A stretch of 64,000 bases of DNA from a virus. Taxonomy: Duplodnaviria > Caudoviricetes. The translations under genes and the position numbers were made by a program. The stretch is taken from IMG/VR virus record IMGVR_UViG_3300046733_000629; one strand, 5' to 3'. Below are positions 29,868-31,913 of the stretch, piece after piece (the first letter of the stretch is position 1; each line of letters begins with the position of its first letter). The notes beneath the pieces were generated by a model. That model made no database searches. It saw nothing but the letters and a program-made list of their open reading frames with translations, and was not told the origin of the DNA.

Positions 29868-29896
29868 TCAAAAGAAAAGACGCCGAAGCGTCTTTT
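29868..29896 (-). terminator. Intrinsic terminator with UUCG loop
   Basis: AAAAGACGC-TTCG-GCGTCTTTT-CTTTT. Confidence 0.9.
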
Positions 29897-29902
29897 CAAA
29901 AT

Positions 29903-30119
29903 ACAAGCAAAATAGGGAGGATTAGGGTTTACCTCCAACTCCTCGACAAGATACCATTCTATATCCAGAGAGCCTGTTTCCGTTCGGTAGAACGATGTGA
30001 CTCAGCGTATTTCTACTACCAAGCCTGGGTACCACCCCTAAACAGCCAAGTTCGACAGTCTGGTTACTGCCTCTTCCTTGCACTATAAACATTGAGCCGC
30101 TAAACTCTTTGTTGCTTAT
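29903..30119 (-). ncRNA. Unassigned ~217-nt structured RNA
   Basis: Own promoter and terminator; 5'/3' closing helix AUAAGCAA/UUGCUUGU; at least six internal hairpins. Confidence 0.75.
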
Positions 30120-30173: not shown

Positions 30174-30326
30174 TTAAATTTTTTGTAGTCTTGGATCTGA
30201 ACTTAGTATGTTTTTCTGAGCACGTGGTCTAGACAAAGGTCTTTCCATTTGTCTTCTATGCAATGCTTTATGTGCTTGCTTAGTACGCTCTTTTTTACGA
30301 GCTAGTTCGAAGTCTCTGTGATTCAT
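30174..30326 (-). CDS. 50-aa Arg/Lys-rich protein (MNHRDFELARKKERTKQAHK...), not in ORF track
   Basis: AAGGAG RBS; late promoter at 30401-30407. Confidence 0.7.
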   Translation of the reverse strand: MNHRDFELARKKERTKQAHKALHRRQMERPLSRPRAQKNILSSDPRLQKI

Positions 30327-30352
30327 AACACTCTCCTTTTTACAGTTAAGTG

Positions 30353-30394
30353 CGTTCCTTCGCTATTGCTACTTCCGTCCCATTGGGATGAACG
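30353..30394 (-). ncRNA. Compact structured leader RNA (three-way junction)
   Basis: CGUUC/GAACG closing helix, UCCC-AAU-GGGA hairpin, GGAAGUA linker; begins near the predicted late +1. Confidence 0.55.
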
Positions 30395-30413
30395 TATTAT
30401 TATTTATCTAAAT

Positions 30414-30487
30414 TGGCATGAGTGAAAGGAATCGAACCCTCATTTGCGGAGTTGGAAGCCGCCGTGTTACCATTACACTACACTCAC
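30414..30487 (-). tRNA. trnW: tRNA-Trp (CCA) with encoded 3' CCA
   Basis: Cloverleaf GTGAGTG/CACTCAT, D arm GTGT/ACAC, T loop TTCGATT, anticodon loop TT-CCA-AC, discriminator G73. Confidence 0.85.
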
Positions 30488-30524
30488 AAAAAAAGCCCCT
30501 AATAAAATTAATTACTAGGGGCTT
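30488..30524 (-). terminator. Strong terminator abutting the tRNA 5' end
   Basis: AAGCCCCTA/TAGGGGCTT stem; the T7 run is directly followed by tRNA G1. Confidence 0.8.
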
Positions 30525-30553
30525 ACTAAAATAACTTTTGTTAAAAAGTCACA

Positions 30554-30616
30554 TCAAGACATACCCCAAATTAATGGTGGCCAATTTGTAATATAAATTG
30601 TATTAGTCTGTGACAT
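30554..30616 (-). CDS. Putative 20-aa leader peptide MSQTNTIYITNWPPLIWGMS
   Basis: Downstream of a sigma70 promoter; AAGGA 13 nt upstream; two TGG codons. Confidence 0.45.
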   Translation of the reverse strand: MSQTNTIYITNWPPLIWGMS

Positions 30617-30646
30617 GTTAAAATTTCGTTCCTTTATTATGTATGT

Positions 30647-30675
30647 AATATACTACACATATTTATGAAAGTCAA
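30647..30675 (-). promoter_or_regulatory. Sigma70-type promoter for the leader/tRNA unit
   Basis: ggTTGACT-17bp-TATATT. Confidence 0.8.
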
Positions 30676-30696: not shown

Positions 30697-30726
30697 AAAA
30701 AAATAGGGCCCCTAAAGGCCCTATTT
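30697..30726 (-). terminator. Terminator after the major capsid gene
   Basis: AAATAGGGCC/GGCCCTATTT plus T run. Confidence 0.85.
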
Positions 30727-30749
30727 CTATATCTGTTCCTTGTTCTCTA

Positions 30750-31913
30750 TTATGAGAATGAAAGGTTACCAGCGTTAACACCAATTTTAGCTAGGTAGTC
30801 AGCTGCGTTACCAAGAGATGAAGCTTGGTTGTTTAGCTCTACATAACCGTAACGTGTCATGAATGACACTGTTGGTTCGAATGTTGCTGGATCAAGTACT
30901 GTGCCTGAAGACATTAGTGGGATGTATGGGCAATAGAATGCTGCCGCATCAATTTCACCGTCGCCTTTGTAGCCAACTAGTACTGGAGCATCGTCTGCTG
31001 CATACTGATCTACAAACACTCTCATAGTGTTATTTAAAGTTCCAACAAATTTAGTGTTAGTTGGTGCTTCAAAAGGACCTTCAGTTGTTCTTGCGAATGC
31101 TGAAGTTGTCGCTGATTGTAGTACTGTTAACATTGTTGGTGAGATAACAACGTAGTTACCTGCGCCACGTCTTGTACGTGTAGCGATTAGGTTAGCTGCT
31201 CTGTTAATTAGAACTGCTAGTGCCGCATGTTGGTCTCCAACGAAAGTTGCTTGACCTGATACGTTACCTTGATCGTATGTGTCTGTGGCTGCGCCTGCTA
31301 GTGTACGTAGTGAAGTAAGAACTTCTTGGTCAATCTCAGCAGTAATTTCTTGTGCAAGTGCTTGCATGATTTCTGCTTCAACGTCTAGACCGTGCATTGA
31401 ATTAGCATCTTGTGCTGCTTCAAAAGTCCAACGTGCTGATAATTTACGTGTTTTAGCTTCAACAGTTTGTTTCAATACTTGGATTGAAAGTTTACGACCT
31501 GCTTCTGCTTCTAGAGCTGAAGTTGAAGTCGGTCCACCTGTTGATGCGTCACCTGAGTAACCTTTTGCAATTGCAAATGGTGATAGTGCTTCGTCACCAG
31601 CTGTTACGCCAGCTGCTGTTTGGCCATATCTTACTCTTAGTGTGTGGATTTGTCCTACTGGACCTGTCATAGGTTGTACACCTACTAGTTCGTTCGCGAT
31701 AACTGTTGGCATAACACGACGAATAACTGGTAGAATCACTTTGTTAAGTGATGCAACGTTACCTGCCATTGTTGTACCTGCGGTTGCTGATTCTGAAAGA
31801 TAGTTTCTTGTGTTTTCAAGAACTGATTCCATAACAACCTTTTTGTTACCATTTAAACCATCTGTAAGGGCGTCTTTTGTTACGTCCCAATTTTCAAATA
31901 GATTCTGTGTCAT
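30750..31913 (-). CDS. gp23: Major capsid protein (gp23-like)
   Basis: ILPVIRRVMPTVIANELVGVQPMTGPVGQI, VEAKTRKLSARWTFE, AFYCPYIPL, FMTRYG. Confidence 0.97.
   Translation of the reverse strand: MTQNLFENWDVTKDALTDGLNGNKKVVMESVLENTRNYLSESATAGTTMAGNVASLNKVILPVIRRVMPTVIANELVGVQPMTGPVGQIHTLRVRYGQTAAGVTAGDEALSPFAIAKGYSGDASTGGPTSTSALEAEAGRKLSIQVLKQTVEAKTRKLSARWTFEAAQDANSMHGLDVEAEIMQALAQEITAEIDQEVLTSLRTLAGAATDTYDQGNVSGQATFVGDQHAALAVLINRAANLIATRTRRGAGNYVVISPTMLTVLQSATTSAFARTTEGPFEAPTNTKFVGTLNNTMRVFVDQYAADDAPVLVGYKGDGEIDAAAFYCPYIPLMSSGTVLDPATFEPTVSFMTRYGYVELNNQASSLGNAADYLAKIGVNAGNLSFS

What the first reader, a model, noticed from the sequence alone, without database searches (positions are those of the whole stretch)
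30488..30675. Candidate Trp-sensing leader-peptide attenuator controlling a phage tRNA-Trp
The order is sigma70 promoter, 20-aa ORF with two UGG codons (..NWPPLIWGMS), strong terminator whose U7 touches tRNA G1, so the tRNA needs read-through or processing. Three helices match attenuator logic: CAAAUUGG/UUAAUUUG (30567-30588, contains Trp codon 1); GGGGU (Trp2-Gly codons) pairing with the terminator arm GCCCC across an internal UGACUUUU/AAAAGUUA hairpin; and the terminator itself. Stalling at Trp1 (also a W-P-P motif) would leave GGGGU free to antiterminate, so the tRNA would be made when charged host tRNA-Trp is depleted or cleaved. I know of no described phage tRNA attenuator. Weak points are the 13-nt RBS spacing and the short antiterminator core.
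Basis: partly seen in the sequence, partly recalled or inferred. Interest (0 to 1): 0.8.

Follow-up and report, generated by a model that had tools for sequence, protein, structure and literature searches.

The report
Trp-codon attenuator gating phage tRNA-Trp
A marine phage puts a tiny translated test gene with a never-changing tryptophan codon, plus a switchable transcription stop, directly in front of its own tRNA-Trp gene, so it probably makes this tRNA only when ribosomes read that codon slowly; I found no published case of this control for tRNA genes.

Summary
On the minus strand lie a sigma70-type promoter (30675-30647), a 20-codon ORF (30616-30554), a 13-bp terminator with U7 (30524-30488) and tRNA-Trp starting at the next base (30487). 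I found the same module in at least 118 uncultured phage contigs (about 73 distinct leaders).

- **tRNA link:** tRNA-Trp is the first tRNA downstream in all but one (a probable ARAGORN miss).
- **ORF:** it stays open through several length classes and start and stop codon changes. One Trp codon never changes, but the peptide sequence drifts freely.
- **Structures:** the terminator and a start-to-stop helix covary. A conserved G-run 10-13 nt before the stop can pair with the terminator's 5' arm. It stays free when a ribosome waits at the Trp codon and is covered when a ribosome sits on the stop.
- **Codon match:** in relatives, codons around the Trp codon match the further tRNA genes downstream (50/59 and 45/50; 0 of 20,000 permutations each).

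No Rfam family, paper, cultured phage or bacterial genome held it. This scan has already noted the same family on other DNA. Regulation itself is inferred, not shown.

The parts
30647..30675 (-). Sigma70-type promoter TTGACT(30675-30670)-17-TATATT(30652-30647). Its spacer holds CATAAATA (30667-30660), the phage's late-promoter-like motif.
   Evidence: 10/12 matches. 35 of 41 distinct relatives have TTGACA-17-TATAGT-like sites (11/12), 27-37 nt before the AUG, with TAAATA in the spacer. ATAAATA lies upstream of many genes in the window.
30629..30635 (-). Shine-Dalgarno AAAGGAA, 13 nt before the AUG (about 8 nt in most relatives)
   Evidence: alignment A1
30554..30616 (-). Leader ORF, 20 codons plus UGA: MSQTNTIYITNWPPLIWGMS
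   Evidence: The ORF is conserved in frame at 17-21 codons in 41 distinct leaders and at 15-24 codons, with ATG/GTG starts and TGA/TAA/TAG stops, in 32 more. There is no codon periodicity and about 82% of codon differences are nonsynonymous. No Pfam family.
30581..30583 (-). Invariant sensor codon UGG (Trp12)
   Evidence: A Trp codon is present in every leader. It lies 10-19 nt upstream of the G-run.
30606..30617 (-). Helix A, 5' strand (CAUGUCACAGAC; start codon and codons 2-4)
   Evidence: MFE. Covariation in A2: AU>GC in 7 sequences (AUG>GUG start) and CG>UA in 4 (UGA>UAA stop); 12 double-change cells, 0/500 shuffles.
30550..30560 (-). Helix A, 3' strand (GUCUUGAUGUG; last codons, stop codon and 4 nt). 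It overlaps the antiterminator 5' strand and the base of hairpin B.
30557..30571 (-). Antiterminator 5' strand AUUUGGGGUAUGUCU, including the G-run GGGGU (30567-30563), which contains the second UGG (30568-30566)
   Evidence: Folding with ribosome masks. The core is paired in 40-41 of 41 and 50-51 of 52 sequences. The G-run lies 10-13 nt before the stop in all.
30531..30552 (-). Hairpin B (GUGACUUUU-UAAC-AAAAGUUAU), the top of the antiterminator stem; possible pause hairpin followed by UUUUA
   Evidence: 91.5% of cells paired
30514..30527 (-). Antiterminator 3' strand AGUAAGCCCCUAGU (spacer plus the first 11 nt of the terminator 5' arm)
30488..30524 (-). Intrinsic terminator: 13-bp stem, 6-nt loop (30524-30493), U7 (30494-30488)
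   Evidence: Folding of the 62 nt after the stop (hairpin B plus terminator) gives -24.9 kcal/mol. Covariation: 6 pairs and 27 cells with double changes, 0/500 shuffles.
30414..30487 (-). tRNA-Trp (anticodon CCA, encoded CCA end). G1 follows the last U of the terminator.
   Evidence: ARAGORN; Rfam tRNA 58.1 bits

Best explanation
This is a ribosome-mediated (leader-peptide) transcription attenuator that gates the phage's own tRNA-Trp gene.

Transcription starts at the sigma70-type promoter, near 30640, and a ribosome translates the 20-codon leader close behind RNA polymerase. Three outcomes follow.

1. If decoding is fast, the ribosome reaches the UGA stop. There it covers the G-run GGGGU and the stop region, so the terminator hairpin forms. 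Transcription ends in the U-run at 30494-30488, one base before the tRNA.
2. If the ribosome waits at the invariant UGG (codon 12) because charged tRNA-Trp is scarce, the G-run and stop region stay free. They pair with the spacer and the GCCCC base of the terminator's 5' arm, forming an antiterminator stacked under hairpin B. Polymerase reads through, and RNase P releases tRNA-Trp from the read-through transcript.
3. If no ribosome is on the leader, a covarying helix between the start-codon and stop-codon regions (helix A) takes away half of the antiterminator strand. In this window that favours termination.

The circuit is a negative feedback that sets tRNA-Trp output by the speed of UGG decoding. 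In relatives the same design senses several codons that match a whole tRNA cluster.

Shown: the anatomy, conservation, covariation of the terminator and helix A, the footprint geometry, and the codon-tRNA match. Inferred: translation of the leader, switching, and the response to tRNA supply.
For: 1. Anatomy is confirmed, and there is no promoter between terminator and tRNA.
2. The module recurs. 72 loci were found through a 17-mer at the stop region. 47 further loci were found through the terminator-tRNA junction alone, so without bias towards the leader; 46 of these have an SD-led ORF of 15-24 codons and all 46 ORFs contain Trp.
3. tRNA-Trp is the first tRNA downstream in 71 of 72 by ARAGORN; the exception is probably a missed call.
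4. The frame is kept through 17, 18, 19, 20 and 21 codons. Variability shows no codon periodicity and about 82% of codon differences are nonsynonymous, so the codons matter and not the peptide.
5. The window and L082 are 92-93% identical in the flanks and 95.9% in the tRNA, but 100% over the 129-nt leader.
6. The terminator covaries. Helix A covaries, including AUG>GUG and UGA>UAA changes that are compensated on the other strand.
7. With a ribosome footprint at the Trp codon, the terminator's 5' arm is sequestered by the 16 nt before the stop in 39 of 41 leaders. With the footprint on the stop it is sequestered in 0 of 41. The geometry is constant.
8. The codon before the GGU is NGG (Gly, Arg or Trp), which points to an RNA-level constraint.
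9. In relatives, 50 of 59 non-Trp tRNAs of the downstream cluster have a cognate codon within W-4..W+3. The permutation mean is 33.4 and 0 of 20,000 permutations reach 50. This replicates as 45 of 50 in the second set. AUA codons go with tRNA(CAU/UAU) at p=1e-6. Independent sister pairs go about 8 the same way and 0 the opposite way.
Against: - There is no expression or termination data. Metatranscriptome contigs do not cover the leader or the tRNA.
- The antiterminator is 6-10 kcal/mol weaker than the terminator state, and the direct-path refolding barrier is only 3-5 kcal/mol.
- The antiterminator is conserved rather than covarying (27/500 shuffles; 15-43/500).
- In this window its energy beats only 94% of composition-matched shuffles.
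- Only one regulatory codon is conserved, whereas classical attenuators usually have runs.
- The SD-AUG spacing here is 13 nt.
- A close relative (L001, capsid protein 97% identical) has a different tRNA-Trp directly behind a similar-looking sigma70-type promoter with no leader. The control is therefore dispensable.
- More tRNA would not cure a shortage of tryptophan itself, and the natural trigger is unknown.
Confidence: 0.72

Rival explanations
1. A fixed, leaky terminator or insulator. The promoter, small ORF and terminator form a small transcription unit of their own, giving a short RNA or peptide. tRNA-Trp is then made by a constant fraction of read-through that does not depend on decoding of the Trp codon.
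For: The terminator is strong and far more stable than the antiterminator, and the refolding barrier is low. Antiterminator covariation is weak. L001 expresses a tRNA-Trp without any leader.
Against: This does not explain the invariant UGG, the frame kept through five or more length classes and changed start and stop codons, the codon-tRNA covariation, or the fixed placement of the G-run inside the stop-codon footprint.
Confidence: 0.12
2. A nascent-peptide arrest sensor of the TnaC type. The growing chain around W-P-P stalls the ribosome in response to a small molecule or to EF-P state, and that stall, not tRNA supply, sets read-through.
For: Trp followed by Pro or Cys-Pro is conserved in most leaders. 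This rival uses the same ORF and terminator anatomy.
Against: The residues around Trp change together with the downstream tRNA set: PP becomes RR with tRNA-Arg, and G, C or Y before W goes with tRNA-Gly, Cys or Tyr. The peptide is otherwise unconstrained. This window's lineage and several others have WPL or WCL in place of WPP.
Confidence: 0.06
3. The terminated leader of about 150 nt is mainly a trans-acting small RNA or encodes a working micropeptide. Its position before tRNA-Trp is only linkage.
For: It has its own promoter and terminator and is well folded (z = -4.6). The leader is 100% conserved between the window and L082. Attenuator-derived sRNAs exist (rnTrpL, PMC6614838).
Against: There is no Rfam family and no Pfam family. 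The peptide is not under amino-acid constraint. The 100% association with tRNA-Trp and the codon-tRNA match would remain unexplained. This reading could also hold in addition to attenuation rather than instead of it.
Confidence: 0.06

Closest known systems
trp operon attenuator of Escherichia coli (trpL; Rfam RF00513 Trp_leader)
   Same: A short SD-led leader ORF carries Trp codon(s), followed by an intrinsic terminator. Mutually exclusive anti-antiterminator, antiterminator and terminator pairings are chosen by the ribosome's position. The stop codon lies next to the antiterminator strand.
   Different: The regulated product is a tRNA gene, not biosynthetic enzymes. There is one conserved Trp codon, not two in tandem. 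The anti-antiterminator is a long-range start:stop helix. There is no sequence or CM similarity (no RF00513 hit). The element is phage-borne.
pheM leader of pheST (phenylalanyl-tRNA synthetase) in E. coli (from my own knowledge of the literature; not checked here)
   Same: Leader-peptide attenuation applied to a gene of the translation apparatus, giving feedback on charged-tRNA supply.
   Different: It controls a synthetase protein gene in a bacterial chromosome. Here the tRNA gene itself is controlled, and RNase P must free it from the read-through RNA.
Multivalent attenuators thrL and ilvL of enterobacteria
   Same: At family level, relatives of this leader carry several different sensor codons (Trp, Pro, Cys, Tyr, Ser, Gly, AUA-Ile, Arg, Gln) that match several downstream products.
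   Different: In this window only Trp is matched. The products are tRNAs, and the codon sets change with the gene content of the cluster.
T-box riboswitches
   Same: Both control translation-apparatus genes by transcription antitermination according to tRNA status.
   Different: A T-box binds uncharged tRNA directly and needs no translation. No T-box model matched. Here an ORF with an SD is the sensor.
Earlier notes of this scan on other DNA (e1-5345692, e1-5341426, e1-5336885, e1-5336881)
   Same: Apparently the same leader family in other marine phage genomes, with the same reading.
   Different: These are unpublished AI notes, not independent evidence. The tests reported here were run on this window and on freshly fetched loci.

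Membership tests
Ribosome-mediated (leader-peptide) transcription attenuators | Short leader ORF with a ribosome-binding site and start codon upstream of the regulated gene | tested here: met
   20-codon ORF with an SD. It is conserved in frame in about 73 distinct leaders, despite length changes and ATG/GTG and TGA/TAA/TAG changes.
Ribosome-mediated (leader-peptide) transcription attenuators | Regulatory codons cognate to the regulated product | tested here: met
   An invariant UGG precedes tRNA-Trp. In relatives the flanking codons match the further tRNAs.
Ribosome-mediated (leader-peptide) transcription attenuators | Intrinsic terminator between the leader ORF and the regulated gene | tested here: met
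   13-bp stem plus U7; covariation 0/500 shuffles.
Ribosome-mediated (leader-peptide) transcription attenuators | Antiterminator that excludes the terminator and overlaps the end of the ORF, so that ribosome position decides | tested here: inconclusive
   The pairing is conserved (88.6% of cells) and the footprint geometry fits. However, covariation is weak, the structure is weaker than the terminator, and the refolding barrier is low.
Ribosome-mediated (leader-peptide) transcription attenuators | Read-through rises when the cognate charged tRNA is limiting | not testable with these tools
   This needs reporter, in vitro transcription-translation or Term-seq experiments. The RNA contigs were uninformative.
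Rfam Trp_leader RF00513 (homologous family) | Match to the covariance model at or above the gathering score | tested here: not met
   No RF00513 hit at E up to 10. Only sub-threshold hits appeared: Phe_leader 23.4 bits (GA 55) and trpB motif 20.5 bits (GA 59).
T-box riboswitch | Match to the T-box model (Stem I specifier plus T-box antiterminator bulge) | tested here: not met
   No T-box hit in the E-value scan.
Functional small protein | Purifying selection on the amino-acid sequence (excess third-position and synonymous change) | tested here: not met
   Entropy per codon position is 0.52/0.56/0.48, 0.44/0.58/0.46 and 0.45/0.45/0.48 in the three classes tested. There are 255 synonymous and 1253 nonsynonymous codon differences. 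No Pfam family.

The most novel reading that the evidence does not exclude
Codon-matched leader peptides form a general tRNA-on-demand circuit of phages. The phage measures decoding speed at exactly the codons for which it carries tRNA genes. It opens its tRNA operon when host tRNAs for those codons run short, for instance after host shut-off or after cleavage by anticodon-nuclease defences. On this reading the element works as a sensor for counter-defence. This window would be the minimal, single-tRNA (Trp-only) form of that circuit.
Probability: 0.35. Interest if true: 0.9.

Novelty: new variant of a known kind. Interest (0 to 1): 0.8.

Why it matters
Why phages carry tRNA genes is still debated: codon-usage compensation, replacement of degraded host tRNAs, or escape from tRNA-cleaving defences. 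How these genes are controlled is largely unknown. An attenuator whose sensor codon is read by the very tRNA it gates would mean that tRNA output is set by feedback from decoding speed. That favours the supply-on-demand readings and makes them testable with a 190-bp element. It would also extend leader-peptide attenuation, known for amino-acid biosynthetic and synthetase genes, to RNA genes. Finally, it would give annotators a recognisable signature (small ORF, terminator, tRNA) for stretches that gene callers leave blank.

Tried and rejected
- **Known RNA families.** The Rfam E-value scan gave only sub-threshold hits over the leader: VrrA 30.7 bits (GA 50), Phe_leader 23.4, trpB motif 20.5, PyrR and Spot42. 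They rest largely on the terminator. Rejected.
- **UGA read-through by tRNA-Trp.** In the window the frame runs 12 codons past the UGA to a UAG inside the terminator arm. In L096 the spacing is 35 nt and an earlier in-frame stop occurs. The extension is not conserved. Rejected.
It can form here but is not conserved.
- **'At least 4 of 8 arm nucleotides paired' as a statistic.** 81% of mononucleotide shuffles also pass, because the segment is G-rich. Only the energy comparison carries information.
- **RNAalifold on the MAFFT alignment.** It returned only the GGGGU:GCCCC core, because the alignment is too gappy in the terminator.
- **Whole genome of the window.** Not held.
- **Metatranscriptome contigs (X15-X18).** They cover the capsid gene, the riboswitch-ORF region and the manA region. 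The leader and tRNA are not covered, apart from a faint bin at 30514-30564 in one run. No conclusion drawn.
- **Prokaryote genomes.** 36 exact 17-mer hits, none followed by a terminator.
- **Cultured-phage collection.** Only the tRNA part and the riboswitch part match.
- **Literature.** Four searches found no description. The 'tRNA operon' mention in PMC3082878 is unrelated.

Full report
**What is there.** All elements lie on the minus strand, in this order:
- The T4-type major capsid gene (31913..30750; 65-71% identical to jumbo-phage capsid proteins) ends with its own terminator (30728..30699).
- A sigma70-type promoter follows: TTGACT-17-TATATT (30675..30647, 10/12 matches).
- Next is an SD, AAAGGAA, 13 nt before an AUG.
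- A 20-codon ORF follows (30616..30554, MSQTNTIYITNWPPLIWGMS).
- A 9-bp hairpin sits just after the stop (30552..30531).
- A 13-bp, 6-nt-loop terminator with U7 follows (30524..30488).
- At the next base begins tRNA-Trp(CCA) (30487..30414).

No promoter-like site lies between the leader promoter and the tRNA. The tRNA therefore depends on read-through of this terminator.

**Is it more than chance?** The window alone cannot say, so I looked for relatives.
- The slot between the capsid gene and a glutamine riboswitch further down is hypervariable among 80 capsid-defined relatives.
- Only L001 (capsid 97% identical) has a tRNA-Trp there. It is a different tRNA-Trp, placed directly behind a TTGACA-17-TACTAT promoter with no leader.
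- Anchoring on the tRNA and on the leader gave homologues in other phage contexts.
- A 17-mer at the stop region then gave 85 loci. 72 of them are true modules; the rest are chance hits inside genes.
- To remove the bias of that pattern, I searched for the terminator 3' arm plus U-run plus the first bases of the tRNA. That gave 47 further loci with tRNA-Trp abutting a terminator and at least 150 nt of sequence upstream. None of them contains the 17-mer.
- 46 of these 47 have an SD-led ORF of 15-24 codons, and every one of those ORFs contains Trp. The 47th has the ORF but a weak SD.
- The module was not found in 185,579 prokaryote genomes. In the cultured-phage collection only the tRNA matched.
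- The window's DNA occurs in seawater metagenomes.

**Translation signature.**
- In 41 distinct leaders of the first set the ORF is open and in frame at 17, 18, 19, 20 or 21 codons.
- In the second set the start is AUG or GUG and the stop is UGA, UAA or UAG.
- One Trp codon is present in all.
- Variability has no three-base periodicity. Of the codon differences counted, 255 are synonymous and 1253 are nonsynonymous, and there is no Pfam match.

So the peptide is not conserved as a protein. What is kept is an open frame, its start signals and particular codons. This is what a leader peptide looks like, and it argues against a working micropeptide.

Between the window and L082 the flanks are 92-93% identical and the tRNA 95.9%. 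The 129 nt from the AUG to the U-run are 100% identical.

**RNA structures.**
- *Terminator.* It covaries strongly: 6 pairs and 27 cells with changes on both sides, reached by 0/500 shuffles.
- *Helix A.* This long-range helix joins the start-codon region (CAUGxxCAAGAC) to the stop-codon region (GUCUUGAYGUG). It also covaries. AUG>GUG is matched by U>C on the other strand in 7 sequences. UGA>UAA is matched by C>U in 4. In total there are 12 double-change cells, reached by 0/500 shuffles. Coding signals and pairing are thus kept together.
- *Antiterminator.* This is the G-run GGGGU (30567..30563) and the stop region pairing with the spacer and the GCCCC base of the terminator's 5' arm, stacked under hairpin B. 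It was recovered by unbiased folding.
  - With a footprint of -15..+11 around a Trp codon in the A site, the first 8 nt of the 5' arm are sequestered by the 16 nt before the stop in 39 of 41 leaders.
  - With the footprint on the stop codon this happens in 0 of 41.
  - Without any ribosome it happens in 32 of 41. In the window, helix A and a GCC.ACC/UGG.GGU pairing win instead, leaving the arm free.
- *Geometry.* The geometry is constant: 10-19 nt from the Trp codon to the G-run, and 10-13 nt from the G-run to the stop.
- *Nucleotide-level constraint.* The codon holding the first Gs is NGG (Gly, Arg or Trp), so the constraint is on nucleotides. This also explains the window's second Trp codon.

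**Weak points.**
- The antiterminator core is conserved but barely covaries (27/500 shuffles reach the score; 15-43/500).
- In the window its energy is -15.9 kcal/mol against -10.8 +/- 2.8 for composition-matched shuffles; 12 of 200 shuffles do as well.
- The terminator state is 6-10 kcal/mol more stable. A direct-path estimate gives a refolding barrier of only 3-5 kcal/mol.

**Link to the tRNAs.**
- tRNA-Trp is the first tRNA after the terminator in 71 of 72 loci of the first set. The exception looks like an ARAGORN miss. It was required in the second set.
- In 18 of 40 distinct leaders of the first set with a tRNA-Trp call, the tRNA starts right after the U-run.
- Many relatives continue into a tRNA cluster. 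Of 59 non-Trp tRNAs in those clusters, 50 have a cognate codon within four codons before to three after the Trp codon. The permutation mean is 33.4 (sd 2.4) and 0 of 20,000 permutations reach 50.
AUA occurs in the sensor window of 7 leaders, and all 7 have a tRNA(CAU) or tRNA(UAU) downstream (p = 1.2e-6).
- The second, independently ascertained set gives 45 of 50 against a mean of 30.9, with 0 of 20,000 permutations reaching 45.
- Phylogenetically independent pairs go the same way about 8 times and never the other way, pooled over six tRNA types. Each type alone is too small for significance.
- Examples: CWRR goes with tRNA-Arg(ACG) in place of tRNA-Pro. G, C or Y before W goes with tRNA-Gly, Cys or Tyr.
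- The window is the minimal case. Only tRNA-Trp follows, and only Trp is matched. Its Pro-Pro is probably inherited from Trp-Pro ancestors such as L094.

**Promoter.**
- 35 of 41 distinct modules have TTGACA-17-TATAGT-like sites (11/12 matches), 27-37 nt before the AUG.
- The spacers contain TAAATA.
- In the window, ATAAATA lies just upstream of many genes. It resembles the T4 late-promoter motif.
- The unit may therefore be read both early and late. This is a side inference.

**Mechanism proposed.**
- Fast decoding puts the ribosome on the stop. The G-run is covered, the terminator forms and no tRNA is made.
- Waiting at UGG12 leaves the G-run and stop region free, while the ribosome keeps helix A from closing. 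The antiterminator forms, polymerase reads through, and RNase P frees the tRNA.
- With no ribosome, helix A removes half of the antiterminator strand, and transcription terminates.
- Hairpin B followed by UUUUA may serve as the pause that couples polymerase to the ribosome.
- All of this is inference from anatomy. No expression data could be obtained, because the metatranscriptome contigs do not cover the leader or tRNA.

**Comparison with what is known.**
- It works like the trp attenuator, and at family level like the multivalent thrL and ilvL attenuators.
- It is not a sequence relative of them: there is no RF00513 hit, no T-box hit, and only sub-threshold hits to other leaders.
- What differs in kind is the target: a tRNA gene, on a phage, sensed through its own codon.
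- Four full-text searches found no description.
- This scan has already noted what appears to be the same family on other DNA. I treated those notes as leads and re-tested their claims on freshly fetched loci.

**Verdict.** This is a new variant of a known kind of control, with high interest and about 0.7 confidence. The decisive experiments are simple reporter and in vitro termination assays.

Noticed in passing
window 30349-30396 (-), with ORF 30326..30174 (-): A glutamine riboswitch aptamer (RF01739, 53.3 bits, GA 35) lies right after the tRNA and an ATAAATA motif (30407-30401). It precedes a 50-aa basic ORF with a strong AAGGAG SD and no Pfam family. L001 appears to carry two tandem copies by eye (about L001:6880-6990). 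Methylophilales phage Melnitz matches this stretch, where it is annotated 'SsrA'.
   Followed up: partly
window 29906-30104 (-): A manA RNA (RF01745) scores 52.1 bits, just under the gathering score of 55.2. It lies between the small ORF and the terminator at 29897..29874. An RNA contig covers 29899-30141 in a marine metatranscriptome.
   Followed up: partly
window, 21 sites listed (e.g. 7129+, 47057+, 53522+, 40522-, 36510-, 30660-, 30401-, 29851-, 25184-, 20189-, 17351-, 15905-, 7097-, 6037-, 2127-, 67-): ATAAATA lies in intergenic DNA a few tens of bases upstream of gene starts at about 17 of its 21 sites. It is probably this phage's late-promoter core, like TATAAATA in T4. All six CATAAATA sites are of this kind.
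   Followed up: partly
L001:4918-6770; L068:3410-3960; L070:5170-5660: The slot between the capsid gene and the glutamine riboswitch is a hot spot for cargo. L001 holds a calcineurin-like phosphoesterase and a GT4 glycosyltransferase (Pfam), plus a different tRNA-Trp behind a bare promoter. L068 and L070 each hold another small gene.
   Followed up: partly
L104, L119, L122, L137, L146, L163, L165 (87-93 nt between the U-run and tRNA-Trp); L143 and L133 hold other inserts: A conserved insert of about 90 nt lies between the attenuator terminator and tRNA-Trp. It has a long closing stem (ACUACACUA...UAGUGUAGU) around two hairpins. No Rfam family matches. Its function is unknown; it may be a processing or second regulatory element.
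   Followed up: partly
L270, L299 (stop UAG just before the G-run); L287, L301 (ORF runs 4 codons further, to a UAA in hairpin B): Some relatives have a shifted leader frame, so the ORF ends earlier or later than usual. These are natural variants that could calibrate how stop-codon position affects termination.
   Followed up: no
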